Below, piece after piece: positions 1,023 to 59,280 of a stretch of DNA of 64,000 nt (position 1 is its first letter; every line of letters begins with the position of its first letter). A program made the translations under genes and the position numbers. This DNA is from Massalongia carnosa (Eukaryota), in NCBI GenBank assembly GCA_965645245.1, contig OZ287085.1, positions 434,001 through 498,000 on the forward strand, in the 5' to 3' direction. Below the pieces are notes generated by a model. It worked only from the letters and a program-made list of their open reading frames with translations. It did not search any database and had not been told where the DNA came from.

Positions 1023-2361
1023 CAGTACTAGGTCAAAAGTTTCCGACAGCCCCACCATCAACTTTTTACCCCCCCACTACTTTGAATTATCAACTATCAA
1101 GTTGTTATTTTGATGTCTTGAAACTTCGTACGATGATTACATACATTATAGCAAGCACATTGGGCTGAGAAATATATTTTTAATATTTCGTATACCCTCC
1201 TTTTGACTGGATGCAAGCTTCAATCCTCCTTTCCATGCTGTCTACTAAACTCTTCAGCATTTCCTCATCTATCAAGGCCCATGCTTCTTCCAATGCTTTC
1301 CAAAGTACCTCGCTGACCCTATCATCACCACCAGTTACCGAGTCGATGTCCGGATTGACCTGGTAGACGAGCTTTTTGAGCACGTACCAAACGTGCTCGA
1401 TGGGATTCAAATCAGGAGAATAAGGGGGCCAATCGATGACTGTTATACCGTTTTCATCGAACCATTTCTTCACCTTTTTGGCAGTGTGAATGGGGGCATT
1501 ATCCTGCATGAAAATGAGACCTTGTTCCCAAATTCCAAGCAGATTATCGTTCAATAATTCCAAATATGAATTCGCGGAGTACCCCATCTTCTTTGCCTCG
1601 AAATCGCGGGCCAATTTGTAAAGATCCGACCTCCCCCCCCCCCCAAAAAGCCCCCCATACCATGACCTTGACCTTTTTTCCTTTGCCGTACGGTTGTATC
1701 ATAGGTTTTTTCCATTTTTCGTCCGGAAACCTGAACACCCATTGACGCTGTTTTCCCGACCCCTTTTCCACCGAGCACTCGTCTGACCATATTATTTTTG
1801 ACCACTGCTCAAAATTCCACTCACGCCGAAGCAAGCACCAGTCCAGTCTCTTCTTTGCCACCTCGGGCGTCAATAAAGGTCGCTTTTTAGCCAGCCAGTT
1901 TGTTAGACCATAGTCTTTGAGCGTCCGATAGAGAGTGGATCGATTACATTGCACCTCAACCTCCGTACGCAGCTGCGCGTAGGTGATGCGTGGATTGATT
2001 CGCGCAAGTTTGATAATACGTCTTCGATCGCGGTTCGAAAATATTCCAGGCCGACCCGATCGCGATTTGGACTTTTCGTTGTTGCGTTCTGGGTGCTTTT
2101 GAAGAGTGTAAATGAATGTGGTTCGAGGCACATTTAATGTCTTTGCAATTTCGGCCGGTGCATGCCTCAATGCCTGGGCTCCAATAATCATACCTCTTTG
2201 ACAATGATTCAGTTCGGTATTACGAGGCTTATTACCAGAAATTGAAGTCAAGGGAGTGCGTGGCATGGTGAAATGATGAGGTCAAAGTTGATGGGTTGGT
2301 AGGTTAAAACGCGAAATCACGAAAATCGCGGGTAGAGTCGGAAACTTTTGACACGGGACTG
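1023..2361 (-). mobile_element. Tc1/mariner (DD34E) DNA transposon, 1339 bp
   Basis: TA on both sides; imperfect 25-bp TIRs CAGTACTAGGTCAAAAGTTTCCGAC and CAGTCCCGTGTCAAAAGTTTCCGAC; contains a transposase. Confidence 0.94.
1180..2266 (-). pseudogene. Tc1-like DD34E transposase, frameshifted at a G homopolymer near 1633-1645
   Basis: ORF 1544-2266 has the HTH, GRP and WSDEC motifs; ORF 1180-1614 has QDNAPIH...SPDLNPIE with 34 residues between D and E. The shift may be a sequencing error. Confidence 0.9.
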
Positions 2362-3356: not shown

Positions 3357-6300
3357 ATTCAAGGATTAGTTGAAGTGTTGATAGGAGCGCTATTCTTTAC
3401 CAAATTCGACATTCGGGACGCCTTCAACTCTATACGCATTAGAGCCGGCGACGAATGGAAGACCGCGTTCAGATGCAGGTACGGTCACTACGAATATCTA
3501 GTAATGCCTTTTGGGTTAGCGAATGCACCTGCCACGTTTCAGGCGTATATTCACGAAGCTCTAAGGGAATACCTGGACGTATTCGTAGTAGTGTATCTGG
3601 ACGATATTTTGGTGTTTTCTAAAAAAATCGAAGAGCATGCAAATCACGTTCGAATGATACTCGAGAAGCTTCGGAAATATAATCTGCATGCGAAACTCTC
3701 CAAATGCCTTTTCGATAAGTCCGAGATTGAATACTTAGGATTTATTTTGACTCCAACGGGCATAAGAATGGACCCCTCTCGCATAACGACGATAACAAAC
3801 TGGCCAGAACCCAAAAATCATAGAGACGTACAAGTCTTCTTGGGTTTTGCGAACTTCTATAGACGATTTATAGATGGATTTTCGCGGATAGTAACTGCCC
3901 TTACTACCCTTCTCAAAGGAGGAAAAAGGGGTAAATTCGACGGCCAGTTTACGTTCACAACGGAAGCCAAGGAATCCTTTGAAAAATTAAAACTTGTTTT
4001 CACGACTGCTCCCATGCTATTGCACTTCGACCCGAAGAGGAAAATCCAATTAGAAACGGACGCCTCAGGAGTCGCGATTTCTGCAATTATATCACAGTTA
4101 GTCGAAGAAACCGGACGCTGGCATCCTATCGCCTTTTGGTCAAGGAAAATGGCTCCAGCTGAACTCAATTATGGAGTGGGCGAAACTGAGATGTTAGCGA
4201 TCGTCGAAGCATGCAAGCAATGGCGACACTATCTTGAAGGGGCATGCATCCCATTCGTGTGATCACCGATCACTGCAACCTTCGTACGTTTCTCACCACC
4301 AAGAATTTATCGCGAAGAGAAGCGCGATGGTGGGAGAGACTCTCTAGTCTCGACTTGGTAATTGAATACCGACCAGGGCGCTATAATCCTGCGGACGGGC
4401 CTTCAAGGCGTCCAGACTATGCTGGAAATGAACCCAAATTGTCTCATCAAGTTGGTGCAGTAGTTTCCAGTGAAGCAGGGGAGCCTCTGGGTATTCGACA
4501 GGGGACAGAGAAACTCGAAGAAAAGTTCGAGACGAAGAAGTGGGTGGTTGCGTCGATAACCGGCATCCCTGTAACTGCTCCTAGGGGAAATGTTATGGAA
4601 TGGGAGCCCACTGTTGATAGCACAATTGTGCATGGATTCATAGAACCTGAATCTGTTAACGGAACTGATTATGAATCAGGGGACTCTTCCGTTGATGAGA
4701 CCGAAAATGGTCCAAGCGCGCGTTCCTTGCTGGCTACTGAAGGGACTGAGAATGAAACTCTCGAGGTTCTTGGAGCAGTAAGAAGGGTTAAGGAGAAGAG
4801 AAAGTCTTCACCTAAACTGGACGAGGGAAAGGCCGATTCGAAGCCTACAGAGTTCCAACTCATGGAGACATCCGAGAAGGAGTCTCGAATTTCTCTAGAA
4901 CAATCAAAGGAAGTTTCAGAGAAGGACTCAGCCTTTACTGCTCCACCGCTCGAGTTACGCACCGTCCTTCTGGCACTGCAAGAGTCTGATCAACTCGCGC
5001 AGCAGAGACGGCCCCTTGCCGCTTCGTCGGCACAGTGGGAGCAACACAAGAGGGAGAGTTTGTATGGAACGCTGGAAGTCAACAAAGGTGTCCAAAGTCA
5101 CTCGCAGGTAGATACCCTGGCATTGGAAGGGAAACCGCGGGGAGATAATAAAGACAAAGAAAACCTTTGGCATATAGAAGACGGCCTTTTATGCAGAGAC
5201 AATAAATGGTACGTACCTTCAGGCATATTGAGAGAAGCGCTACTGCGACAGAATCATGACGACCCCAATGCGGGCCACTGTGGAGTTAGGCGGACAGTGG
5301 AATTAATTCAAAGAAAATACTACTGGCCTAAAATGCGAAGAGACATCAAAAGTTATGTCGAAACCTGTACTCGTTGTCATCAGGTCAAGGCTCCAAGACA
5401 TAAGCCTTACGGAGAATTGGTGTCGTTGCCAATCCCTCAAGGACCTAGACAAAATTGAACAATGGACTTTATAACCGACCTTCCGCCAAGCATTCGGCGG
5501 GGGCAAGTTTATGACTCCATCCTGGTAACGATAGACAGGTATACGAAATTCTCTCGTTACATACCCGCACGAAAGGACTGGGAAGCTGAGAACATGAGCG
5601 ATGTCCTTGTCGAAGAAATATTTACCAAATTCGGTATGCCAGTGTCGATTGTAACAGATCGGGGAAGTCTTTTCACCTCCAAATTCTGGTTGCACTTCTG
5701 TTATCACCTCCGAGTACGGCTCAATTATAGCACAGCCTTCCATCCTCAAACCGATGGGCAGACGGAGAGACAAAACCAAACCTTAGAACAGTAACTGAGG
5801 TGTTATGTGAACTATCAGCAAGATGACTGGTTATATTGGTTACCAATGGCTGAGTTTGCTTACAACAATAGATTGCACAGCATTATCAACATGACACCGT
5901 TCGAAGCAATGTTCGGGGAAGCCCCAAAGTGGGAAGATAGTATTCTCGAAGCAAGGGAGAGCGAGACCCCAGTGGCTCGCCTTCGAGCGGTGAACATGCT
6001 GAAACAAAGAGAAACGTTGCGGAAACTTCTCAATGAGGCTGTAAACTCTCAAGCTAAGTTCTATAATGAAAACTATATGCCCAAGACATATAAAGTAGGT
6101 GAGAAAGTCCTGCTGAGCGCTAAAAACATCAAGTCTACTAGGCCATCCAAGAAATTGGATTATAAATATTATAGACCATATGAGATAATAGATCTCGTGG
6201 GGAAGAATGCTTACCGCCTGCGACTGCCCAGCTTACTGAAGGGAGTACATAATGTATTTCATGTCTCCTTGTTAGAACCCCACATTATAGATCCAAAAAG

Positions 6301-8036: not shown

Positions 8037-9109
8037 TGCAGTCCAGAAAAAAACTTTTTCAATAGAGTTTTGATTAAAAAAAACAAGTGTATTTTCTGCA
8101 CTTTTATCAGGGGAGACTCTATCTTCATCGGGAAATCGGGAGATGACTAATAGATCTTGATGATTAAATATTCGACTCTGTGGTTTCTTTAGTCTTTATT
8201 CGTCAACCTTTAGTCAGTTACCTTTATCTGTTGTACGTCTTTTCGTCATATTAGTCAGTGCAACCTGCATCTCAACAAATAATCGTCGCTCTGTCTTTAC
8301 TTCTCGTCTCGATAGGCTTTATTATTCTCTTTACCTCGACCTTTTAATAATTCAGTCGTATATTATCCACTCTATCCTATCTTTACGTCCTCTTTATCCG
8401 TTGCAGAGTAATTTTGCTTGTACAGCTGCTCTCTTTACATGTCGCATCGTCATACATTGAATTCGTTACAGCTTTTGTATCTTGCGTATAAAATATCTTT
8501 ATAATGCGCAACCCACCTTGCATGTCTCATCGAAGATAAAGTTACGCACATTTAGTTCTCGGAGATTAACAGAGTTCTAATTGCTTTCTCTATCTTTGTA
8601 TATTGTATCAGAGTTCAAGTGTTTTGTTAGCTATCGTGAGGTCGTGTTAGACTGACGGGTCGAGGTAACTGTGTGTTAGGAAGCCTGTTAGCTGGCAATC
8701 AGTTTCCTTACTGTAGTGTGATGACGCTCAATTCGAAGCGATTAAGCTTGAGTTATGGTTAGGGATTAAGAACAGCGGTCTTTTGGGGCAAAACTGGCAA
8801 ACGACGGGCTCTCGTACCTCGCTGGACGGGATGTCATGTTGCATTTGTGGTCCGTCACATCCTGTACTACTCTAATTATCGATTCAATGAAATAATTTAA
8901 CCTACTGCATAGATGAAACATTAAGTGAATACCGACGTTCAAAATAACAGTCGCAGCGCTCACGATAACTACTGGAAGACTACGAACTATCTACATATGA
9001 CTCGGGATCACGGGCATTGGAGACTTTATCGTTTGAGACTTTTGAGGTTTGACATACTGAACCTTTTACAGAGATGATCTACGGTAAGCTAACATCAACT
9101 AACCCTAAT

Positions 9110-9185
9110 CTAACAGCTAACAGGATTTTCTTGATCTAACAGGGTTTTCTTGATCTAACAGGGGCTGTTTTAATCTAACAGGAAC
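9110..9185. repeat. About 19-bp tandem repeat (TTTTCTTGATCTAACAGGG) upstream of the element's gene
   Basis: 3-4 imperfect units; the copy at about 21520-21610 has one more unit. Confidence 0.8.
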
Positions 9186-9342
9186 CGTTAGCATATCATA
9201 ACAAAGTCAACGATCCTAACACGCTAGATTTGGTTGCAATGGCAAACTTGTTCATTTTACTTTTCGCGTCGATCTCTTCTACTTTGCTCGTTTCCCAAAC
9301 CCACAGGTATTGCATATTCCTTGTTTCTTCTTTTTTTCAACA

Positions 9343-11780
9343 ATGTCAACATCAACGACAACCACTATCAACAACCCACAAAGAATTACAATGGTACGAA
9401 CCTCCCCAGGATGTATAGAAACCAACGCGTATCGGCTGACTTTGCTTTTCCTTCGAGAACTCTCAGGATTTTGATGATTCGCCTTCCGAGGAAGACTTGC
9501 CTGCATTGGCACAACTAAAACGCTCTCGTGCACAATTTGAGGGAAATAACACTTACGGAGACAACAAACGCTCACATCGCCTGCCTTGTGTGGACGAGTT
9601 GGCTGAATCTAGTACTGGCAACGACTCAAGCGATGCGAGTTTCCAGCCGAGTGTAAGCAGTACAGTCATGAATGCATGTATCGGGTTCTGACCTAGAACA
9701 GAAAACGCCGATAACTAAGTATGTGGCGAGGACATTACCGGCTGGCGCAGGCCGCGGTATTCAATACAGCCCAAGATCTCCATCTCGAATGAGCTCCTTA
9801 CGAAGAGAAACGTTCCCTTCGTCTTGATCGAGAAACCCTTCCCGCGCGCTGGATAATATCTTGTCACCTTCACAAATACGCACTCGTCGGGTTTGCCTGC
9901 GACACTGTCCTCGCAAACTCTCGAGATCTCAAAGGTCCTCCCGATCAAGTCTACTTTCGGCACAAGGGCTGGCATAACGGAGGACGAGACAGTCTCGAAA
10001 TCAAAAAAATATATGCTTATCGTTTACTCTGGGGTGACATATCAAGGCGAACCAAGTTCAACTCTAGCCCTGCTCATCAACCAATACTATGTGCCATGAT
10101 TCCTTTTTTCAACGCTTTGATAACGTCCGGACACGCGGTTGAATTATGTTCGCCTTGGGCGAACACACAGAAGCCTCGATTGAGCAAATTAATGAGTCGT
10201 ACTTGGCGGGACCTTGCGAAGCGTCTCGGTGACCTTCCTGGCAACCGGAACGTCAATGTAGCAGAACTTCCCACCGCCAAAGAGGCTCGCAAGGTAGGAG
10301 AGGTCTTACAACGGATTTGTACATATAAAAACTAATCTGAGACTAGATTTATGATTCGACAACGGATTTTCGCTCTCAAATGTTGAGCAAAGTGAGCTTG
10401 CTTGTGGCTAACGAATACAGTTCTCAGTTCAGAGCGACTGTCGAATATTCGTGTCCACTTTGCTAGACGATCTTAATTTTCTGTGCGAAGATTTATCAAC
10501 GGTTAGTATGTCCTAGTTATCTTGATATAGAGTTTAACTAACTCGCGAGTAGGCTCCGAAAAAGCAGTTTATCGCGCCTATCTTGATAAAGGCAATTACT
10601 CTGATATTCTTCAATAACGACAATGACTGCAGTTATGGACGCAATACCGACACTGCGTATTTGTTCAATCCACTTCGAGGAGAAGTGATCGTATTGATAG
10701 CAACTCTAACTCAACATGCTATTGGAGAGTATGAGTACCGGCAAAAAAAGGTACAGGCTTTTGATGGGTCACAGCGAGAGAGTAAGTTTGTATCAATATA
10801 ATCTTTGCTGAGTTGAGGCATTAATACTGAAAACAATCCATACTCGAATGACGAACACCTGGAATCAACAGTCCTCGGAGAGATAGATGTTGTTACAATG
10901 AATCATTCATCGGCGGGTTATGCGTCAGACTGGACAAAGAGATGGGGACTTTTCGGCGGTCACAAAAGCTGTCCACAATCCATTTGCCACTTCTATTGAC
11001 GATCTTGTAGATCTTGATGCAGGAGATAAAATGACCAAGTCGGTCAGGTCGACAGCGCGGCTTTCTTCCTTGACATCTTCGTGTAGAACTTCGATCGTTC
11101 GTTGCGAGGAGGTGGATTCGGGTTTTTCGGTATGTCTTGATTGATATTATGCTTTGGAATTATCAGTAACAACAATAGAAGGAAACCTCTTCACCTAAGA
11201 CCGCCGCAGTTGACGAGCCACGAGGTATGCAATCTTATTAACCGCGTTCTAACGTGCTATTAACATCTCTACTAGAATTCTTCGCAACGTGGGCCCTCAC
11301 AATTAAAGCACAGCGCATCAAGTTCATCATTCGTAAGAATTCGCTTTTTTTGTAGAATATCTGTCAGTCTAACAGTTGCGTTGGAAACAGATTAACGACA
11401 AGATATCGTCAACTCCAACTCCACTCGTGCAAGACGCAATCGTGACGACAGATTCGGGTCAAGAATTTGCGGTAGATTACGATTTACGCATGGGGAAAGA
11501 CTGGCGGATTCGGATGAGGTATGATGCAACGTGGAAGGAGTGGCAGACTGCTGTGGGAATGAAAGATGGGGAGTCGTTCTGGTATACTGTACCAATATTT
11601 CCCGAGGCCGTATTGAGCTTTGAGGAGGAATATAGTTCGTTTTTGGATCGGGTGGAACAGGTGCATAGAGTAATGATACACACTGGGCGCAATCTCAAGC
11701 AGATGAAGACTCTGCGAGGGAGGACGACAATATGGGAGAACTCACATAACATTTATTTTACCCAAATCTTGATAATATAA
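9343..11780 (+). pseudogene. Multi-exon gene of unknown function inside the CATCGGG element (central exon resembles fungal DUF6532-type proteins)
   Basis: ATG 9343 MSTSTTTTINNPQRITM, then GTACGA..GCTGAC..AG and GTAAGC..CTGAC..AG introns join to acidic and Ser/Arg-rich exons; later exon FIAPILIKAITLIFFNND..SYG..YLFNPLRGEVIVLIATLTQHAIGEY. Some stops/frameshifts. The 3' end is approximate and the domain call is by resemblance only. Confidence 0.6.
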
Positions 11781-12148
11781 TTGACTGGTGTGTCTTTATT
11801 GTCGTATCTTGCAGCATCAAGCGCTCGAAAAGGAAACAGAAGCAGTGTATTTTGAAGATTTGTTACAATCGTTACTAAAACAACAAGTTAATGAAATTAT
11901 TGGATTCAAATGCTTATAATGACACAAAAGAGTCCATATAACAATTATCATCATTGGACAAAGGAAGGTAAAGGTAATCAATAGTCAAAGAGTAACTGTT
12001 TACACGTCAAATGTTCGACTATTCGTCAAGCGCCCATGTCAAACATGGGCGCAATCGGAATTACCTAGAACATTTCGGCTAATTGACTAATGTAGCCTAT
12101 TAGTCGACCATTTGACCAATTCGCGAGTCCTCCTGATTTCCCGATGTT

Positions 12149-17689: not shown

Positions 17690-18359
17690 TGGTTCATGCC
17701 TTCGATTTTCTTTTCTTCCTCGTAGGAGTTCTGGAAGGTTTTTCCGGATATTGATTATGATAGGAAATAATTAATTCCTGTGATCCTTCCACGTCTTCTA
17801 TGGATAACCATTGATTATCCGTATCGGATAATCCTATCCATTTCACTAGATATTGGTTGTTCTTCCCCTTCTACTTCTATGGGTAGAGGCGGTTCAGATA
17901 TTTTGTTCGGGTCATATCTATAAGGTTCCAATAGGGAAACACGGAACACATTATGAATACCCTTCCATAACGGAGAAAGTTGGAGTTTGTAGGCCTGTTT
18001 TCCTATAGGAGAGACAATTTCGTATGGCCCGTAATATTTGTAGTCCAGTTTTTTGGACGGACGAGTGGATTTAATATTTTTTGCGTTCAGGAGGACTTTA
18101 TCACCCATATTATACGTCTTGGGAATATGTTTCTGATCATAATATTTAGCCTGGGTACTTGAACCTGTTTGTAATAATTTCTCCAGGTGTTTTCTTTTGT
18201 CCATTATGTCAGTAGCCAGGACGCGTGCAGCAGGAACCTCGGACCCCTTTTCAGTCAGAATTTCATCTTCCCATTTGGGCGCTTCTCCAAATATAGCTTC
18301 GAAGGGGGTCATTTTTTTGACACTAAGTAAGCTATTATTATAAGCGAATTCTGCCAAGG
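17690..18359 (-). pseudogene. Integrase C-terminus and partly deleted chromodomain of gypsy A copy 2
   Basis: AEFAYNN..TPFEA..KKLDYKYYGPY..HNVFRVSLLEPY; continues from 25705 once the insert is removed. Confidence 0.9.
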
Positions 18360-18849
18360 CACGCGGGGGACAAAAAAAAAACTACACCAAAATTTAACCG
18401 GGTTCAAGCCCCCACCAAAACACAAGCAATTTCCATACAATTTTGATAGGATAATCACCATTTCAACAACCAGTCATCCAATTCATTCAATCTATTCAAT
18501 AACAAGTCATTTTACCCTCACCATCCAAAACAGCTCTCAATCTACATCGGGAAATCGGGAGGACCCGCGAATTGGTCAAATGGACGACTAATAGGCTACA
18601 TTAGTCAATTAGCCGAAATGTTCTAGGTACTGCCGATTGCGCCCACGTTTGACATGGGCGCTTGACTAATAGTCGAACATTTGACCTGTAAACAGCTGCT
18701 CTTTGACTATTGATTACTTTTACGTTTCTTTGTCTAATGATGATAATTGCTTTATTGACTCTTTTGTGTCATTGTAAGCATTTGAATCCAATAATTTCAT
18801 TAATTAACTTGTTGTTTTAGTAACGATTGTAACAAATCTTGCGTTGGTC

Positions 18850-21374
18850 AAAATGCACTGCTTTTGTTTCCTTTTCGAGCGCTTGATACTGCAAGATACG
18901 ACGATAAAGACACACCAGTCGAGTATATTATCAAGATTTGGTTTAAATAATGTAATGTGAGTTCTCCCATATTGTCGTCCTCCCTCGCAGAGTTTTCATC
19001 TGCTTGAGATTGCGCCCAGTTTCCTCTTCGTATCATTATTCTATGCACCTGTTCCACCCGATCCAAAAACGAACTATATTCCTCCTCAAAGCTCAATACG
19101 GCCTCGGGAAATGTTGGTACAGTATACCAGAGCGACTCTCCATCTTTCATTCCCACAGCAATCTACCACTCCTTCCACGTTGCATCATACCTCATCCGAA
19201 TCCGCCAGTCTTTCCCCATGCGTAAATCGTAATCTACCGCAACTTCTTGACCCGAATATGTCGTCACGATTGCGTCTTGCGCGAGTGGAGTTGGAGTTGA
19301 CAATATCTTGTCGTTAATCTGTTTCCAACGCAATTGTTAGACTAACAGATATTCTACAAACAAAGCGAATACTTACGAAGGATAAACTTGATGCGCTGTG
19401 CTTTAATTGTGAGGGTCCACGTTGCGAAGAATTCTAGGAGAGATGTTAATACCATGTAGAACGCGGTTAATAAGATTGCATACCTCGTGGCTCGTTAACT
19501 GCGGCGGTCTAGGTGAAGAGGTTTCCTTTCTATTGTTGTTACTGATAATTCCAAAGCATAATACCAATCAAGACATACCGAAAAACCCGAATGCACCTCC
19601 TCGCAACGAACGATCGAAGCTCTACACGAAGATGTCAAGGAAGAAAGCCGCGCTGTCGACCTGACCGACTTTGTCATTTCATCTCCCGCATCAAGATCTA
19701 CAAGATCGTCAATAGAAGTGGCAAATGGATTGTGGACAGCTTTTGTGACCGCCGAAAAGTCCCCATCTCTTTGTCCAGTCTGACGCATAACCCGCCGATG
19801 AATGATTCTTTGTAACAATATCTTTCTCTCCGAGGACTGTTGATTCCAGGTGTTCGTCATTCGAGTATGGATTGCTTTTCAGTATTAATGCCTCAACTCA
19901 GCAAAGATTATATTGATACAAACTTACTCTCTCGCTGTGACCCATCAAAAGCCTGTACCTTTTTTTGCCCGTATTCGTACTCTCCAATAGCATGTTGAAT
20001 CAGGGTTGCTATCAATATCATCACTTCTCCTCGAAGTGGATTGAACAAATGCGCAGTATCGGTATTGCGTCCATAACTGCAGTCATTGTCGTTATTGAAG
20101 AATATCAGAGTAACTGCCTTTATCAAGATAGGCGCGAGAAACTGCTTTTTCGGAGCTTACTCGCGAGTTAGTTAAACTTTATATCAAGCTAACTAGGATA
20201 TATTAACCGTTGATAAATCTTCGCACAGAAAATGAAGATCGTCTAGCAAAGTGGACACGAATATTCGACAGTCGCTCTGAACTGAGAACGGGTATTCGTT
20301 AGCCACAAGCAATCTCACATTGCTCAACATTTGAGAGCGAAAATCCGTTGTCGAATCATAAATCTAGTCTCAGATTAGTTTTTATATGTACAAATCCGTT
20401 GTAAGCAAGACCTCACCTACCCTGCGAGCCTCTTTGGAGGTGGGAAGCTCTGCTACGTCGACGTTCCGGTTGCCAGGAAGGTCACCGAGACGCTTCGCAA
20501 GGTCCTGCCAAGTACGACTCATTAATTTGCTCAATCGAGGCTTCTGTGTGTTCGCCCAAGGCGAACATAATTCAACCGCGTGTCCGGACGTTATCAGAGC
20601 GTTGAAAAAAGGAATCATGGCACGTATTATTAGTTGATGAGCAGGGCTAGAGTTGAACTTGGTTCGCCTTGATATGTCACCCCAGAGTAAACGATAAACA
20701 TCTATTTTTTTTTATTTCGGAGACTGTCTCGTCCTCCGTTATGCCAGCCCTTGTGCCGGAAGTAGACTTGATCAGGAGGACCTTTGAGATCTCGAGAGTT
20801 TGCGAGGAGAGTGTCGCAGGCAAACCCCGACGAGTGCGTATTTGTGAAAGCGACAAGATATTATCCAGCGCGCGGGAAGGGTTTCTCGGTGGAGACGAGG
20901 GGAACGTTTCCCTTCGTAAGGAGCTCCTTCGAGATGGAGAACTTGAGCTGTATAGAATACCGCGGCCTACGCCGGCCCGTGATATCCTCGCCACATACTT
21001 AGTTATCGGCGTTTTCTGTTCTAAGTCAGAACCCGATACATGCATTCATGACTGTAATATTTACACTCGGCTGGAAACTCGCATCGCTTGAGTCGTTGCC
21101 AGTACTAGATTAAGCCAACTCGTCCACACAAGACAGGCGATGTGAGCGTTTGTTGTCTCCGTAAGTGTTATTTCCATCAAATTGTGCACGAGAGCGTTTT
21201 AGTTGTGTCAATGTAGGCAAGTCTTCCTCGGAAGGCGAATCATCAAAATCCTGAGAGTTCTCGAAGGAAAAGCAAAGTCAGCCGATACGCGTTGGTTTCT
21301 ATACATCCTGGGGAGGTTCGTACCATTGTGATTCTTTGTGGGTTGTTGATAGTGGTTGCCTTTGATGTTGACAT
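18850..21374 (-). pseudogene. Second copy of the multi-exon gene of the CATCGGG element
   Basis: ORF fragments 19908-20126, 20382-20618 and 18848-19156 match 10583-10801, 10096-10335 and 11376-11780; ATG at 21374 (MSTSKATTI). Confidence 0.6.
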
Positions 21375-21685
21375 AGTGAAATAAAAGAAGCAACACTGAA
21401 TATGCAATACCTGTGGATTTGGGAAACGAGCAAAGTAGAAGAGATCGACGCGAAAAGTAAAATGTTCCCAAATCTAGCGTGTTAGGATCGTTGACTTTGT
21501 TATGATATGCTAACGGATCCTGTTAGATTAAAACAGCCCCTGTTAGATCAAGAAAACCCTGTTAGATCAAGAAAACCCTGTTAGATCAAGAAAATCCTGT
21601 TAGCTGTTAGATTAGGGTTAGTTGATGTTAGCTTACCGTAGATCATCTCTGTAAAAGGTTCAGTATGTCAAACCTCACATACTTA

Positions 21686-21984
21686 CTATACCCCCCCTGA
21701 ACAATCTTGAAAACATGGGTTTTTTGCAAGGGGAGGACGGGAGTAATGACTTGACAGCACATGGGTGGAAAACCAGGGCTTCGAGCCAATCAGGACATGT
21801 AAATATTTTTTACTGTACAGCCCTACAGGGAATCCCTTAGTGATTTTACCTCCGTCCCCAAATATCCAGAAGATTCGACTGTCTGATTGGCGACAAGCCT
21901 GTATCCACGCCCGTTTTCACCCTAGCACACACCCCCGTACTGTCCTTGCAAAATCCCATGTTTTCAAGATTGTTCAGGGGATAG
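21686..21984. mobile_element. About 300-bp Tc1/mariner-type MITE
   Basis: TIR core CCCCTGAACAATCTTGAAAACATGGG at both ends, TA on each side, no coding capacity. Confidence 0.85.
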
Positions 21985-23818
21985 TATAATGATATCCGTT
22001 CACCTGTAACAATAGTTACCAGGTATCATGGAAGCGGCAACGAGTCCGTGGCACTTCAGACCTGAAGCGTTGAAAACGGCGGACATAGCAGAGGACAACA
22101 GTGTTCTTTGCGGAGACGATAGTACTGAATATAGTAAGCACCCCCGAAAAGCCTAATTCCTGCCCCAGACCTGCTCATCGACGCTCCGCAACGGCCCTTC
22201 GCCACATTCTTCGTGAACTGAATGTTCACCTTTTATACCACCTCATGGAAATCATCTAGACCATCTTTCGTCAACCATTTATCTACCATCCAGATCACAA
22301 CCCAGATTACCTTTGACCACCATCCAGACCACCATCCAGATCACCGTCCATACCACCTTTTGACTATCATCCCAACCACCTCTTGTCCACTATCGATACG
22401 ATCATCCATATTATCTTTGACCTCCGTCCATACGAAGGAAGCTGTGGCATGTGTAATCTATATTCCGATGAACAAATCAAGTAGTGGACTCCATTTGTCA
22501 GGTTAATATAACCAACCGAGTCCATTTTTATTGCGACCGAGAGCGCCCCCCTATCGCACATCCCATATATCTAGACCTTCATGTGCTCTTGAATCCTTTA
22601 GACTTGATGGATTGGGTGTTTAGTTTATGTTTGGGATTATAACTTAACGTTTGGGATTATAACGTAATGTAACGGTTCGACCATGCGTGGTCTCGACAGC
22701 AGGACCTACAGCGAACATGGCAGGAGTCCCAGTTATAGTAGAATAGAGCTTGGTCTGCGGACTAAGTATTGTGCCTTTTAGTCGGGAGGACAGGTGGCGC
22801 AATGGTAGAAATATATTCACTATCTCGCTTCGTCACACGTAACCTGTTGTGTTATATTAGGATTAACGAGAATTGGTTTCTTAAACGCATGCGCTTTTTG
22901 GTAGGATAAGGAAGGGCTTCCGTCTAAGAGGGACTGTTGTTCCAGAACAGATGAGCTTAGTATGTCGTCGCGGTAGTAGTTGGTCTTCTAAGATTTGGGC
23001 TCTGTAGGCATTAAGCAGGCTTTCTCGTCATCAAGTAACAGATAATCATCAATTCAAAGAATAATGAGAATCACAACCACGTAATGATGTAGAATACTGT
23101 TGATCTTCGAGAACTGAATGTGCGTAACATTATCTTCGATAAGAAATGTAAGGTGGGTTGACAGAGTACGCAAGGTACAAAAGCTGCAACGAAGTCAATA
23201 TATGACGATGCGACATGTAAAGAGAGCAGCTGAACAACCAAAATTACTCTGCGACGGATAAAGAGGACGTAAAGATAGGATAGAGTGGATAATATAGGAC
23301 TGAATTGTTAAAAGGTCAAGGTAAAGAGAATAATAAAGCTTATCGAGACGAGAAGTAAAGACAGAGCGACTATTATTTGTTGAGATGCAGGTTGCACTGA
23401 CTAATATGACGACAAGACGTACAATAGACAAAGGCAACTGACTAAAGGTTGACGAATAAAGACTAAAGAACCCAAAAAGTCGAATATTTAATCATCAAGA
23501 TCTATTAGTCATCTCCCGATTTCCCGATGTATCTGGCATAGTAGACACCCGTTCATTGATAAATGCCTGGGAAACGTTCGCCCACCCCTCATAAATTAGC
23601 CCCTTGGTCGTATCATCATCCCAATGAGGATATTTTTTTTAATATTGCTTCGGGGCCTGCCAGCAATTTTCTATGGGGGCCAAATCAGGTGAACATGGAC
23701 AGTTGAAATAGTGCTTCAGATCATTGTTCTGCTTCCAAGTGCGTACAATGTTTGATTTGCCTGGTCCATGTCCAGAATCACCGTCTTCATCTAAGACGAA
23801 ATCGTGTTTTGCTTCAAT

Positions 23819-24845
23819 TGTAATGGGCTACGAGACCAGTAAGCTTATCACGAGCGACACTGATCTCGAAAGGGGAAATGCTCAGCGTGAGAGGTGGAAG
23901 ATAGCTACTACGTGCTGGTCTCCGAGAGTATACGTGATCCAAAGAACTAATCGATGTGGAAGTGCTCAGACCAAGAGATCTCGTCCGAGACCCAAACGTA
24001 GGTTGTTCATAGAATAAAGACTAATTGCTAACGAATACTACAAGATTCGTTCTGGTATTTATCCTACTCACCCCAAGCCTATAGCCTTGGGAGCCTTGGA
24101 ACCTTAGGAGCCTTGCAACCCACTTCTGACCTTATCGTCTTACATCTAACCATCCCTCAGGATCCATCTACGAACTCGGCGTTCGCTGGATCATCTAGTC
24201 AGCCTCGAGCAGCCTTCTAGACCTTCCCTTGCAAGGTAGAACACTTCTACCTCCGGCTAGATCCCTCACTACATTGCTAGCCTGCCTCTAAACATAAAGT
24301 CTAGACGCCGAGGCTATGTAGCTTCATTTCGCCGTCACCACTACCAACGTAGCGATGGAAGGTTACCTCCGACTGAATCTCTATCTACACTGCGGACCTG
24401 CCTCTAGACACAAGGTCTAGACCACAAGGTCATGTAGGTTCATTCAGCCGACATCACTACCAACGTAGCAATAAAGGTTGAAGCTGAAGTTTACACCGGG
24501 GAGGCCGAGCTCAAGCTGCGTCCAGCTAGCCGTGCCTCCTGCTACAACTCTTGATCCATCAAGAGATCGAGTAGCTCCGGGTAGGCCAGTAGATTCCATA
24601 TAGAGTTCACGGCTTCTCCACAGGAGTTCGCCTTACTCCATGGCAATCTACCACCACGGCCTCGACAGGTGTTTGATCTGTAAGCAGTCTAGAACGTAGT
24701 AACAACTAATTCGGAGTTGTGTGGCAAGGTGGCGTCGTGTCAACCTCGACGGCTGTGCGACTAAGTACTACGGCCTGGCTCATGCTAGTTAATCCCGCAA
24801 CCGCCGTAGGCGATCACGTATCCTTCTAGCGCCATCCGTATTACA
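23819..24845. mobile_element. 1027-bp insertion with TGTAAT...ATTACA ends; probable long solo LTR
   Basis: 5-bp TSD TCAAT at 23814-23818 and 24846-24850; interrupts the DD37E transposase at PW|IEAKH; internal direct repeat of about 80 bp at 24281 and 24398. Confidence 0.85.
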
Positions 24846-25704
24846 TCAATCCAGGCTTCACAATAGGCTCCAATATAGAGTCGATATAGACTCGTTGACT
24901 CATCTTTCCATTGAAGTTTCCAGGAACTTTGTAAAAGTAGATATCTGACTTGAAGTCATGACCTGCAGCAGCCCAACAATGATGTCTCTTCTTGACGGCC
25001 TCGTCTGGTTTATCTGCTTCTTGAATACAATCATGACAATAACGTTCACCTAATCTTCGTATGATGCGTAATTTGCCCTGAGGTCCCCATCCAAAGTGCA
25101 CTTCGTCGCTAAATCGAACTTGTTTCCAGTCTTCTGCATTTGGATATCTAGAAGCATAGCATCTGACCACTTCGAAGCTTTCTTGTCTTCTCGTTCACCC
25201 ATCCCTTTCTGCACGCAATACATTTGTGATAATCCATGGTGCCCATGATTCGTTGAATGGTTTTGCCACTGCAGTCTAGGCTACTTCGAAGCCCAATTGC
25301 TCCCATGTAAGAGCGCGCGCCTCCATACCTTCTTCTTCCAATAGCCGTTCCATTTCTCTAATCAATTTAGGCGTAACAATTTTGTGACGCCCACGAGCTT
25401 CAGAAACATCGGAATTATTATGATGACGGCGTGATGGGGCTCCTTCACGCAGGTATGCATAGCCCCTCGTACGTTCCACATCAAATGTGCGAAAAACATC
25501 CTCTTTGTGATAAGAAATGCCTTGCTTTTCGCAAAATTCAACGGCTCCCTGAATTTTAGCTTTGGTAGGAGTCTCGATATGTTTAGAATTCATAATAATG
25601 ATAATTATCCCATCAAAATCGTATGTAAATTGCTTGTGTTTTGGTGGGGAGTTGAGCCCGGTTAAATTTTGGTGTAGTTTTTTTTTTGTCCCCCGCGTGC
25701 AAGG

Positions 25705-28700
25705 GTAACCAGTAAGTCCAGTCATCCTGTTGATAATTGACGTAGCATCGTAGATATTGTTCCAGTGTCTGATTTTGTCTCTCGGTTTGACCATCCGTTT
25801 GTGGATGAAAGGCTGTACTGTAACTGAGTCGAAGTCTCAAATGATAACAGAAATGAGACCAGTACTTTGAGGTGAATAAACTACCCCTATCCGAGACAAT
25901 AGACACTGGCATACCGAATTTGGTAAATATTTCTTCCACTAGGACGTCAGCCATGATTTCAGCATTCCAGTCCTTTCGTGCGGGAATATATCGAGAATAT
26001 TTGGTATACCGATCCACAATGACAAGAATCGCATCATATGCCACGGTTCGGCGGAGACTCGGGGGCAGATCCGTTATGAAGTCCATCGTCCAATTTTGTC
26101 TAGGCCCTTTTGGTACGGGTAGGGATTCTAATAATCTGAAGGGCTTATGTCTGGACGATTTGACTTGATGAAAACGAGTACACGTTTCCACATAATGCCT
26201 GATGTCCTTTACCATTTCGGGCCAATAATATTTCCTCTGGATCAATTCCAACGTTCTGGAATAACTAAAGTGGCCCGCATTAGGATCATCATGATTCTAC
26301 CGCAAAAGTTCAGCACGTAATAGACCAGGGGGAATATATCACCTATTGTCCCTGCATAGGATATTATCCTTCATGTGCCATCGGGTTTTTTCTAGGTCTC
26401 CTTCGACTTCGCCCTCCGACTCCCGCTCGTCTCGGAGCTGAGAGCCTGACGAGTCTTCGTTACCCCCCAATTTATCCCTCGACGTGTCATGTAGTCGTCC
26501 TATAGAATTCCGCCCCTCATCTATCGACGATGCGATGGATGGCCGTTTCTTCTGCACTAGTGGATCAGGCTCTTGTAGAGTTTGTAAAACGGTGCGTAGT
26601 TCTATTGGGGCGGCCCCAAACGCCGAGTCTTTCTCAGAGACATTTTTTATCTCTTTCCGAGAAATTTCAAACTTCTAATCCGAAGTTTCCACGAGTTTGA
26701 GTCCAACTGATTTTAATTAATCAATTTCTCGTGTAACTGAGAGGTATCGGAACTACTTCCTGATTTTTTCCCCTTAGTTCTTCCAACAACCGCAAGAATT
26801 TCAGGAATTTCGACAATTTCAGCCGAATCAATTCCAATTCCTTCAGTAGTTTGTTGGGCCTGCGCAGTACTCCGACAATTTTTGTCGACAACGGGTGGAC
26901 TCATCAAATTGCGATTTGCCCCGTCTGATAATTCAATTATAGTAGATTCTCAATCCATAGCATCGTCAGCTACTTGAGATTCATCATTCACAAGGGCCAT
27001 TGTCCAATTTGACGTAATGAGCTCCTCTATCCCACCCTCGATTCCTCTCCGAGACCCCCCCGAATCTTCCAGGAATTATAGCTCCGGCTTGATGAGATAA
27101 GTCGTGCCTTTCTTCCATATAATCCGGGCGTCTAGAGGGTCCATCGGCTGGATTATGACGACCTGGACGATATTCAATGACGAGATCAAGACTAGAAAGT
27201 CTTTCCCACCATCTCCCCTCTCGTCTAGATAAATTTTTGGTAGTAAGAAAGATACGAAGATTACAATCATCGGTTATTACCCGAATCGAATGTATCGCCC
27301 CCTCAAAATAATGTCTCCACTCCTTACATGCTTCAACAATGGCCAACATTTCTGTTTCGCCAACACCGTAGTTTAATTCGACTGCATGCATTTTTCTTGA
27401 CCAAAAAGCAATAGGATGCCACTGTCCCGTCGATTCAACCAATTGTGATAAAATAGCTGAAATCGCGACTCCGGACGCGTCCGTCTCTAATTGTATTTTC
27501 CGCTTAGGGTCAAAATGCAATAACATAGGAGCGGTGGTAAAAGCATGCTTGAGACGACGAAATGATTCTCTTGCTTCTTCGGTGAATGAGAATTTAATAT
27601 CGAACTTTCCTTTCTTTCCCCCTTTTAGTAGCGTCGTTAAGGCGGCCACAATGCGCGAGAATTCGTTGATAAATCGCCTATAGAAATTTGCAAAACCGAG
27701 AAATACTTGAATATCTCGATGATTTTTGGGTTCAGGCCAATCTATAATCGTCGCCACCCGAGACGAGTCCATAGATATACCATTCCGATTTACAATAAAT
27801 CCCAGAAATTCAATTTCAGTCTGGTCAAAGAGGCACTTGGATAATTTCACCTGTAGACTGAATTTCCGTAATTTCTCCAGGACTAGTCGGACATGAAATG
27901 TATGATCTTTTATCGATTTGGAGAATATCAAAATATCGTCCAAGTACACCACTACGAAGTCATCTAAACATTCCCGTTGGGCTTCGTTTATGTAGGCCTG
28001 GAATGACGCAGGAGCGTTGAATAGTCCGAAAGGCATAACCCGGTATTCAAATTGACCGTGCCTGCATCGAAAAGCCGTTTTCCATTCGTCACCGGCCCGT
28101 ACCCGGATTTTATGATATGCATCCCGGATATCGAGTTTAGTGAAGTAGACGGCGCCAACAAGAACATTTAATAGGTTCATGATCAAGGGTAAAGGATATC
28201 GATTTTTTATGGTAATAGCGTTCAGTCCCCGATAATCAACACATAGTCTCAGACCACCATTCTTTTTCTTGACGAATAAAATAGGAGCACCGGCCGATGA
28301 AGTGCTAGGAACTATGAATCCTTTGGCCAAATATTTGTCGAGGTACTCCCGTAATATTTGTAACTCGGTCAAGGATAAATTGTATATTGGGCCGAATGGA
28401 GGCTGTTTTCCTTCCGTATCGATAGCATGATCCTGAGGTCCATGTTCAGGCAACTTCTGTGCATTATCTTTCGAAAAGACGTCATGGAAATCCGAATATT
28501 TGGATGGAATTTCATTTGTAACCTCCGTCACCGAACCGACTACGGTTCCTGCCCGATCGAGCTTCTCGATATCTAAAAGGAATGCCTGAACTCCATCTTT
28601 TTCACAAATGTCCCAAATTTCGTCCCTGCTCACCATCGCTACGTCCGCTTGACTACTGGTATTTTTACTTCGGGGGGGGTAACCCCCTCGTCTACAGGCC

Positions 28701-58399: not shown

Positions 58400-59280
58400 T
58401 ATTGTTAATTGACAGTTTTTCAGTCCATCAAAGCGGCTGAGATATCTTAGTTGTTGAAGGTGGTTTATTCAATGTTAGCGTTATATTTCTGCCAGCAAAT
58501 GCTACCAGCTTATGCCAGCCGCTGGATCAGGATATTATAGGCGCTTTCAAGGCTCATTACAGACAACGCTGGGTGGCTGGCTAAATTACATTGCCTCCGA
58601 ATACGACGCAGATAGGGAGCCGTTAAAAACCATCAACGTACTGATGGCAATACGTGGTGCGTAGCCGCCTGGAATTACGGTGTTACTCAGTTAACTATCT
58701 CTAATTGTTGGCTGAAATCCCGTGTAATCGGGGCAAAATATGGGTCAATGACTCGAAAAGAGGCGGAGAAATATGGCTATCTCAATGAGACTCGGGCGCA
58801 AGAGCAAGAAACGGAGCAACGACTACAGATACAAGCTACAATACGGCGTTTGGAAGACCCTAGTCATATACAAAGCGCCGTGCGTATTGGCGAATTTCTG
58901 AACCCTGTTGAAGAGGTGGTAGAGGATACCGAAAAGGATTTGGAGGATCACATCGTTGCTATATATGGTGGTCATGAAAGGGAATACGAGACGGAGGAGG
59001 AGGTCATTGTATCACGTGTTCAAAACAAGGACGCTCTAGAAACGTTACGGTTATATGAGGAGCAACGAGAGGTCGGTGACGATGATTTGATACGTCGTCT
59101 GAATCGTAAAGAGTGGGATATCAAGACCTAAATGGCGATAAGCTCTAGGCAAGCTGTAATGACGGATTTCTTTGTCATTAGATAGTCGATAGGTATAGTC
59201 TTGAAAATATGCCAAGAATTTTGATATTAGAAACCTCGCCTAATACATAAGAAACCTAGATGCTAAACCCGATCTGACTG
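58400..59280 (+). mobile_element. 3' part of a pogo/Tigger (CENP-B-like) transposon with right TIR
   Basis: FLPANATSLCQPLDQDIIGAFKAHYRQRW; ends CCCGATCTGACTG followed by TA. Left limit approximate. Confidence 0.85.

What the first reader, a model, noticed from the sequence alone, without database searches (positions are those of the whole stretch)
18360..25699. Tc1/mariner-type DD37E transposon that makes a 5-bp non-TA target duplication and ends in CAC...GTG
Seen: the transposase has IS630-Tc1-mariner motifs (FSDE, EDGDSGH, SPDLAPIE; D-37-E), but the element is bounded by about 95-bp TIRs starting CACGCGGGGGAC and a 5-bp CAAGG duplication. Removing the element and one CAAGG restores the host integrase frame (WLPLAEFAY), so the boundaries are well supported. 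Established: this superfamily almost always duplicates TA, while CAC ends with 5-bp TSDs are typical of Transib/RAG-like elements. The ordinary TA-flanked DD34E element at 1023 is an internal contrast. Inference: a fungal lineage of ITm transposase with changed target recognition and cut stagger.
Basis: partly seen in the sequence, partly recalled or inferred. Interest (0 to 1): 0.8.

Follow-up and report, generated by a model that had tools for sequence, protein, structure and literature searches.

The report
Fungal Tc1 transposons duplicating five bases
A widespread group of fungal jumping genes uses a Tc1/mariner-type enzyme but duplicates five mostly G+C-rich bases where it lands, instead of the TA pair that defines its relatives, which makes it a natural test of how such enzymes pick and cut their target.

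Summary
Confirmed and wider than reported. The window element is a dead, twice-interrupted copy of a young 1.33-kb family with many intact 361-aa ORFs. All 30 best-matching genomic loci carry an exact, variable 5-bp duplication; across sister families 83 of 102 two-ended sites do, none has TA, while a TA-family control gives TA in 18 of 19. Empty sites lack the element plus 5 bp. Pfam and fold searches place the enzyme with Sleeping Beauty and Mos1, not Transib. Relatives in fungal metagenome contigs (40-68% identity) share CA(C/A)G ends and 5-bp duplications, and all typed 5-bp elements fall in one clade (100/99) beside TA-flanked fungal Tc1 elements. New here: a soft target consensus TAN|CCWGG|NTA with TA usually on one side only, shared hot spots between families, and one probable excision footprint (duplication-GTG-duplication) in the window, the Tc1-type donor cut. 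DD37E is not the defining mark (spacing 37-43; the TA sister is DD41E). Best reading: Tc1 excision kept, integration stagger moved from 2 to 5 bp. Ten literature searches found no description; Repbase and Dfam could not be checked.

The parts
18355..18359 (.). left copy of the 5-bp target duplication CAAGG
   Evidence: empty-site paralog at 5765-5922 holds one copy only
18360..18462 (+). terminal inverted repeat at the 3' end of the transposase gene, starting CACGCGGGGGAC
18496..18544 (-). transposase, last codons and stop
   Evidence: read against intact copies
18545..23531 (.). nested insertion 1: a different TIR element (ends CATCGGGAAATCGGGAG) with a TA duplication; 13 other matches over nearly the whole 3-kb probe in the genome; family not identified
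   Evidence: no Pfam family above cut-off in 7 ORF pieces
23532..23818 (-). transposase piece with the second D (EDGDSGH) and the E (SPDLAPIE)
23819..24850 (.). nested insertion 2: solo LTR (TG...CA, 23819-24845) plus its TCAAT duplication; present at the same point in three other copies that lie at other sites
24851..25593 (-). transposase N-terminal part (HTH region, linker, first D in FSDE), frameshifted in this copy
   Evidence: intact copies hit HTH_Tnp_Tc3_2 and DDE_3
25597..25699 (-). terminal inverted repeat at the 5' end of the transposase gene
25700..25704 (.). right copy of the 5-bp target duplication CAAGG
25705..26296 (-). host retrotransposon integrase (Integrase_H2C2, rve), interrupted by the element and continuing at 18359-17815
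58568..58580 (.). probable excision footprint of this clade: GCTGG-GTG-GCTGG, followed by CTA
   Evidence: 9 of 9 aligned paralogs of the host repeat lack the 8 bp
1023..2361 (-). internal control: ordinary TA-flanked DD34E Tc1-like element
   Evidence: 18 of 19 copies with both ends are TA-flanked

Best explanation
A cut-and-paste transposon lineage of filamentous ascomycetes, descended from Tc1-like elements, in which the integration step changed. SHOWN: one ORF between TIRs; Tc1/mariner fold with D165, D262, E300; variable 5-bp duplications; soft target consensus TAN|CCWGG|NTA; dead copies are moved in trans. INFERRED from Mos1 and Sleeping Beauty: a transposase dimer binds the TIRs through its N-terminal HTH region, nicks the non-transferred strand 3 nt inside each end, cuts the transferred strand at the end, and the two 3'-OH ends attack the target 5 nt apart instead of 2; host repair duplicates the five bases. 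One probable footprint (5-mer, GTG, same 5-mer) fits that donor cut and not a hairpin cut. HYPOTHESIS: the stagger is set by a remodelled target face. The residues after the second D are D-G-D-S-G-H in the clade against D-N-D-P-K-H in Sleeping Beauty, whose P247 and K248 are reported to act in target choice, and the WPP motif before SPDL is replaced by FNx. One subunit still reads a T-A step, now 2-3 bp outside the cut, while the G+C-rich core is spanned without the flipped-adenine reading of a central TA.
For: Duplications: 30 of 30 best loci; 83 of 102 distinct two-ended sites in six end types, 0 TA; 15 of 26 distinct two-ended metagenome sites exact, 0 TA; control 18 of 19 TA. Empty sites: joint skipping 1333 = 1328+5 in runs X3 and X4, two studies; gap-free paralog. 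Enzyme: DDE_3 E 9e-8; only PDB sequence hit SB100X; Foldseek top 15 all Mos1, SB or SETMAR; VIA-align Z 20.3 (SB, rmsd 4.0, 204 aligned), 18.4, 18.2, 17.8, next 9.6. Tree: all 28 typed 5-bp rows inside one branch, 100/99. Target: TA at -3/-2 in 66 of 166 half-sites against 6.6% further out; both sides 7, one 52, none 24, negative association p 0.006, no bias by element orientation, 32 against 34; six flanks shared by different families. Trans-mobilisation: the solo-LTR-bearing dead copy lies at four sites with four different 5-mers. Footprint. Residues; PMC8934666 passages.
Against: No transposition assay: that this protein itself makes the duplication is inferred from the ORF, end and duplication travelling together. 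19 of 102 own sites and 11 of 26 metagenome sites lack an exact 5-mer; of the 18 own ones re-examined, 4 differ by one base and two pairs have swapped flanks (L167 counts in both), the rest are unexplained. Nesting inside TA-flanked Tc1 has only 86/89 support and the alternative is not rejected (p-AU 0.32). The footprint is one case, picked by its pattern; nine other 8-bp insertions with other middles passed the same screen among 1000 candidates, mostly in simple sequence, and three other candidates had no paralog to test. Which residues set the stagger is not shown; 26 positions are diagnostic, and the G-x-G insertion after the H is shared with the TA sister, so it is not the cause.
Confidence: 0.85

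Rival explanations
1. The ends belong to a Transib-like or other 5-bp carrier element that captured a Tc1 ORF and is moved by a different enzyme.
For: 5-bp, G+C-rich duplications and CAC ends are Transib marks (PMC1131882 passages); duplicated 5-mers here are 66% G+C in DNA of about 44%.
Against: Intact copies are 1.33 kb with one ORF and no room for a second enzyme; ends and ORF vary together over families 37-70% identical; no CACAATG heptamer; the TA-flanked Tc1 sister has a similar end; a survey of fungal genomes found no Transib (PMC5751038 passages), although PMC1131882 reports one in soybean rust; the one footprint keeps 3 nt of the element.
Confidence: 0.04
2. Real, but already catalogued (a Repbase Mariner entry or a Dfam/RepeatMasker TcMar subgroup such as Sagan, or part of the impala group) with the 5-bp duplication noted there.
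For: The clade is common in well-studied fungi (Pyrenophora, Botrytis, Colletotrichum), so curators are likely to have met it; PMC7325037 lists the fungal impala group as DD37E.
Against: Ten full-text searches gave no such description; the DD37E families read about are stated to duplicate TA; five clade motifs were absent from six supplementary files of PMC7325037 (weak, as aligned files break motifs).
Confidence: 0.35
3. The lineage is a separate ITm-related superfamily (as Zator is) that is sister to, not nested in, fungal Tc1.
For: Long stem (0.55 changes per column, 100/99); holding all TA rows together is not rejected (p-AU 0.32); the TA criterion fails.
Against: The best tree nests it beside a TA family with which it shares KCIAC, ERYCxDCI, QEDG, the G-x-G insertion and the end motif; this rival differs in rank, not in mechanism.
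Confidence: 0.2

Closest known systems
Tc1 family (Sleeping Beauty; fungal DD34E Tc1-like elements such as window 1023-2361)
   Same: 1.3-kb single-ORF anatomy, DDE_3 and HTH_Tnp_Tc3_2 domains, fold (Z 20.3 to SB), SPDL.PIE motif, probable 3-nt excision footprint
   Different: 5-bp variable duplication instead of TA; DGDSGH for DNDPKH; FNx for WPP; 24% identity to the TA family of the window
DD37E groups: ITmD37E/Mosquito, TRT, L18, and the impala group as labelled in PMC7325037
   Same: [quoted passage not shown]
   Different: MS and TRT are stated to duplicate TA; impala duplicating TA is recalled, not checked; spacing in the clade is 37-43; no reference sequence of these groups was in my tree
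Mos1/mariner
   Same: fold over residues 6-360 (Z 17.8, rmsd 7.3, 306 aligned); staggered donor cut 3 nt inside the end (PMC5481204 passages) fits the footprint
   Different: DDE not DDD; Mos1 reads a central TA by flipping its adenines, which cannot apply to a variable 5-bp core
Transib / RAG1
   Same: 5-bp duplication, G+C-rich target, CAC first bases in part of the clade
   Different: Transib is 3-4 kb with a ~700-aa enzyme and a CACAATG heptamer; here 1.3 kb, 361 aa, CACGCG/CAAGCG; best read as convergence
Zator (recalled: ITm-related, 3-bp TWA duplication)
   Same: precedent for an IS630-Tc1-related enzyme that left the TA rule
   Different: duplication length and sequence differ; no Zator sequence was compared

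Membership tests
IS630-Tc1-mariner (Tc1 family) | DDE catalytic domain of the DDE_3 / Tc1-mariner fold | tested here: met
   Pfam DDE_3 32.5 bits over cut-off 28.6; folds
IS630-Tc1-mariner (Tc1 family) | N-terminal paired-like HTH DNA-binding region | tested here: met
   HTH_Tnp_Tc3_2 E 3e-5 but under its cut-off; model aligns with Mos1 over 6-360 and weakly with the Tc3 DNA-binding domain, Z 4.7
IS630-Tc1-mariner (Tc1 family) | about 1.3 kb, TIRs, one ORF of about 340-360 aa | tested here: met
   1327-1329 bp, 361 aa
IS630-Tc1-mariner (Tc1 family) | TA target-site duplication | tested here: not met
   0 of 102 own sites, 0 of 26 metagenome sites; so it is filed as a Tc1-derived variant, not as an ordinary member
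IS630-Tc1-mariner (Tc1 family) | staggered donor cut leaving 2-3 nt of the element in the footprint | tested here: inconclusive
   one probable footprint against a background of other 8-bp insertions
IS630-Tc1-mariner (Tc1 family) | nested within Tc1 in a transposase tree | tested here: inconclusive
   nested at 86/89; p-AU 0.32; no named reference families in the tree
DD37E families (MS/ITmD37E, TRT, L18) | conserved DD37E spacing | tested here: inconclusive
   37 in this family; over the 120 listed homologs 48 have 37, 29 have 38, 10 have 39-43, the other 33 gave no usable match
DD37E families (MS/ITmD37E, TRT, L18) | TA duplication | tested here: not met
Transib | 5-bp duplication in G+C-rich targets | tested here: met
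Transib | CACAATG heptamer, spacer, A-rich nonamer | tested here: not met
   ends are CACGCG, CAAGCG, CTCGCG with an A run from about position 12; Transib consensus
Transib | 3-4 kb element, ~700-aa transposase | tested here: not met
   1.3 kb, 361 aa
Transib | RAG1-like fold | tested here: inconclusive
   Tc1/mariner structures lead both fold searches by a wide margin; a family not listed is not thereby excluded
Zator | 3-bp TWA duplication (recalled) | tested here: not met
   longest exact duplication is 5 at 82 of 102 sites
Repbase / Dfam named subgroup (Sagan and others) | match to a curated consensus with its stated duplication | not testable with these tools
   neither library is held; the six papers naming TcMar-Sagan were seen as search listings only

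The most novel reading that the evidence does not exclude
An undescribed, ascomycete-wide branch of Tc1 in which the target geometry was re-registered: the same donor chemistry, a 5-bp stagger over a G+C-rich core, and the ancestral TA still read, by one subunit only, 2-3 bp outside the cut. It would be a second eukaryotic cut-and-paste lineage with 5-bp G+C-rich duplications, reached independently of Transib/RAG, with dozens of intact young copies and a close TA-making sister, so that the residues that set the stagger can be mapped by swaps. One related locus (L091) has a 7-bp repeat, so the stagger may have moved again.
Probability: 0.55. Interest if true: 0.82.

Novelty: new variant of a known kind. 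Interest (0 to 1): 0.74.

Why it matters
The TA duplication is one of the marks by which IS630, Tc1 and mariner were grouped (PMC7325037), and PMC1131882 called Transib the only eukaryotic DNA-transposon superfamily with 5-bp duplications. A whole fungal clade breaks both rules. (1) What fixes the stagger of a DDE integrase is an open structural question; here a 5-bp maker and a TA maker with similar ends sit in one genome as a natural pair. (2) Fungal non-autonomous elements with CAC ends and 5-bp duplications would be misfiled, or missed by tools that demand TA. (3) Young intact copies (99.8% identical) offer a Tc1-size enzyme that does not need a central TA and prefers G+C-rich cores, a target range that Sleeping Beauty point mutants did not reach in the passages read.

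Tried and rejected
DD37E spacing or the G-x-G insertion as the cause of the 5-bp stagger: rejected, the TA-flanked sister has both a longer spacer and the insertion. A 3-bp duplication with longer ends: rejected, the inner 3-mer match is the middle of the 5-mer, the 5-mer varies between copies, and empty sites lack element plus 5. Relatives outside fungi: none in viral contigs, none in plasmids, only 8 distant matches of 25-39% in prokaryote genomes. Transib or RAG entries were not among the listed rows of either fold search. Expression: no RNA holder listed. Run X6, another organism label, holds only the element at depth 2 without flanks: too thin to call horizontal transfer. Footprints: three further candidates lie in single-copy DNA and could not be tested; the trimer count alone was not decisive. 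An automatic TA/5-bp labeller mislabelled L277 from an inner repeat, so tree labels were set by hand; L292, L293, L297 and L299 were left out of the tree as partial. The nested 5-kb TA-flanked element gave no Pfam family. End motifs searched in the literature gave only unrelated primer matches in the 40 of 84 papers listed. The protein atlas returned DDE_3/Tc1 clusters only.
Full report
OBSERVATION. The element runs from 18360 to 25699 between inverted repeats of about 100 nt that start CACGCGGGGGAC, with CAAGG on both sides. It sits in the integrase of an LTR retrotransposon (Pfam Integrase_H2C2 and rve). Removing it with one CAAGG restores the frame, and a paralogous integrase at window 5765-5922 aligns to the rebuilt empty site without a gap. 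Two later insertions split it: a 5-kb TA-flanked TIR element and a solo LTR with its own TCAAT duplication. The rebuilt 1321-bp copy has 22 differences from an intact copy, including frameshifts.

COPIES. A search of the genome with the 849-bp right part gave 40 long matches at 97-100% (a lower bound). Of the 30 loci returned, 25 showed both ends and all 25 had an exact 5-bp duplication; the other five were the window and four long nested copies, each with a 5-bp duplication when read wider. Of 24 copies of normal length, 18 carry an open 360-361-aa ORF, and mean pairwise identity is 99.8%, so the family is young. The dead copy with the solo LTR lies at four sites with four different 5-mers (CAAGG, CACCT, CGTAG, CTACG): the ends mark the mobile unit and dead copies move in trans. 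Contigs of two of four public runs laid (X3, X4; two studies) join across locus L009 skipping 1333 bases, the element plus five; the flank there is itself repeated, so these may be paralogous empty sites, which serves the same purpose.

THE ENZYME. The intact protein matches DDE_3 and, under its cut-off, HTH_Tnp_Tc3_2. The only solved sequence hit is Sleeping Beauty. The model (pLDDT 82.9) matches Mos1, Sleeping Beauty and SETMAR in Foldseek at E 3e-11 to 4e-6, and by VIA-align at Z 20.3, 18.4, 18.2 and 17.8 with the next entry at 9.6. It is a Tc1/mariner-type enzyme.

THE CLADE. 403 homologs were found; the named ones are from Pezizomycotina (Pyrenophora, Botrytis, Colletotrichum, Bimuria, Clathrospora, Rutstroemia and others). 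In the own genome, sister families at 52-72% identity were fetched. Of 150 loci examined, 37 lacked two ends at 1.2-1.45 kb; the rest gave 102 distinct sites, 83 with an exact 5-bp duplication, 19 without, none with TA. Of 18 failures re-examined, 4 differ by one base and two pairs have exchanged flanks, as recombination between copies would give. Of 80 metagenome loci, 49 gave no clear pair of ends; the 31 others reduce to 26 sites: 15 exact 5-bp (40-68% protein identity), 1 with one mismatch, 10 with more, none TA. Ends are CACGCG, CAAGCG, CAAGTG or CTCGCG followed by an A run. The control family at window 1023 gave TA in 18 of 19. In a tree of 58 rows (238 columns, LG+G4) all 28 rows typed as 5-bp fall in one branch at 100/99 that also holds 16 untyped rows and no TA row; its nearest typed relative is a TA-flanked family of the same genome whose end reads CAAGGTTGGGTGAC and whose spacer is DD41E. 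That nesting has 86/89 support and the alternative is not rejected (p-AU 0.32). D-to-E spacing in the clade is 37 to 43, so DD37E does not define it.

TARGET. The 83 sites, read on both strands, give T at -3 (67%), A at -2 (61%; C 1%), and a core C/G-C-W-G-G/C: TAN|CCWGG|NTA, soft. TA stands at -3/-2 in 66 of 166 half-sites against 6.6% further out, and in 9 of 30 metagenome half-sites. It is on one side in 52 sites, both in 7, neither in 24, fewer doubles than independence predicts (p 0.006), with no bias by element orientation. Six 12-nt flanks are used by two or three different families (my family patterns overlapped there, so I counted only flanks found in loci of clearly different end type), which points to hot spots in repeated host DNA; same-family repeats of a flank may instead have been copied with the host repeat.

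DONOR CUT. Window 58568-58580 reads GCTGG-GTG-GCTGG followed by CTA; 9 of 9 aligned paralogs of that host repeat hold the 5-mer once and lack 8 bp. This is what repair leaves if the non-transferred strand is nicked 3 nt inside the end, as stated for Mos1 (PMC5481204, passages). It is one case chosen for its pattern; nine other 8-bp insertions passed a like screen of 1000 candidates, mostly in simple sequence or with one paralog.

MECHANISM. Shown: anatomy, fold, 5-bp duplication, target bias, movement in trans. Inferred: Tc1-type binding and excision, then strand transfer with a 5-nt stagger. Hypothesis: the target face changed. After the second D the clade has G-D-S-G-H where Sleeping Beauty has N-D-P-K-H; P247 and K248 of Sleeping Beauty are reported to act in target choice and to overlay S119 and N120 of HIV-1 integrase, and most K248 changes abolish its transposition (PMC8934666, passages). 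The D at +2 and G at +4 are among 26 positions conserved in the 5-bp rows and absent from five TA rows, with the FN that replaces WPP and a Y-x-V-P-x-N-x-N segment (whose numbering runs one ahead). No single residue is shown to be the cause.

AGAINST KNOWN KINDS. It works like Tc1 but fails the TA criterion, so it is filed as a Tc1-derived variant. It shares the duplication length and G+C preference of Transib but not its size, heptamer or enzyme (PMC1131882, passages); PMC5751038 (passages) found no Transib in its fungal survey. MS and TRT DD37E elements are stated to duplicate TA (PMC10379824, PMC5630946, passages); PMC7325037 (passages; six supplementary files searched) labels the impala group DD37E, and I could not compare impala. 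Passages of PMC2817418, PMC11544213, PMC9977792, PMC4112212, PMC4522978 and PMC5915480 held no such family; PMC4522978 mentions two MITE families with 5-6-bp duplications in Zymoseptoria, which might be derivatives (untested). Ten searches found no description. The library lacks most subscription journals, Repbase and Dfam, and supplements of the fungal genome papers were not read; a curated entry could exist there. Zator's TWA duplication and impala's TA are recalled.

VERDICT. Real, clade-wide and mechanistically informative. New variant of a known kind; interest 0.74; about 0.55 that the clade and its target rule are undescribed.

Noticed in passing
window 18545-23529 and about 8126-12147: A 4-5-kb TIR element (ends CATCGGGAAATCGGGAG), TA-flanked in the window copy, with 13 other matches over nearly the whole 3-kb probe and fragmentary, probably spliced coding DNA; no Pfam family in 7 pieces. 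An unidentified DNA-transposon family.
   Followed up: partly
L091 (metagenome contig), also L092, L095: Subgroup with CAAGGCCTGGCC ends inside the 5-bp clade; L091 is flanked by a 7-bp repeat (CCCAGGT), the two others by none. A single case, perhaps a further change of stagger.
   Followed up: partly
L033 and L034 (G000:C12, 10.8 kb apart, inverted); L167 and L168 (G000:C13): Pairs of inverted copies with exchanged 5-mers, as an inversion between the two copies would leave.
   Followed up: partly
window about 21684-21988: A 300-bp MITE with long inverted ends, nested in the 5-kb element.
   Followed up: no
L252, L257, L259, L289 (G000): TA-flanked DD41E Tc1-like family with CAAGGTTGGGTGAC ends; the nearest typed relative of the 5-bp clade.
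   Followed up: yes
24 young copies: Differences between copies are few and not skewed to C-to-T or G-to-A (13 of 36), so no sign of repeat-induced point mutation on this family.
   Followed up: no
run X6 on L009: A run with another organism label holds the element nearly identical at depth 2 without the flanks; contamination or transfer, not resolved.
   Followed up: no
window 58400-58650: The host of the footprint is a multi-copy repeat whose reading resembles a pogo-type DDE domain (by eye; not confirmed by a profile search).
   Followed up: no
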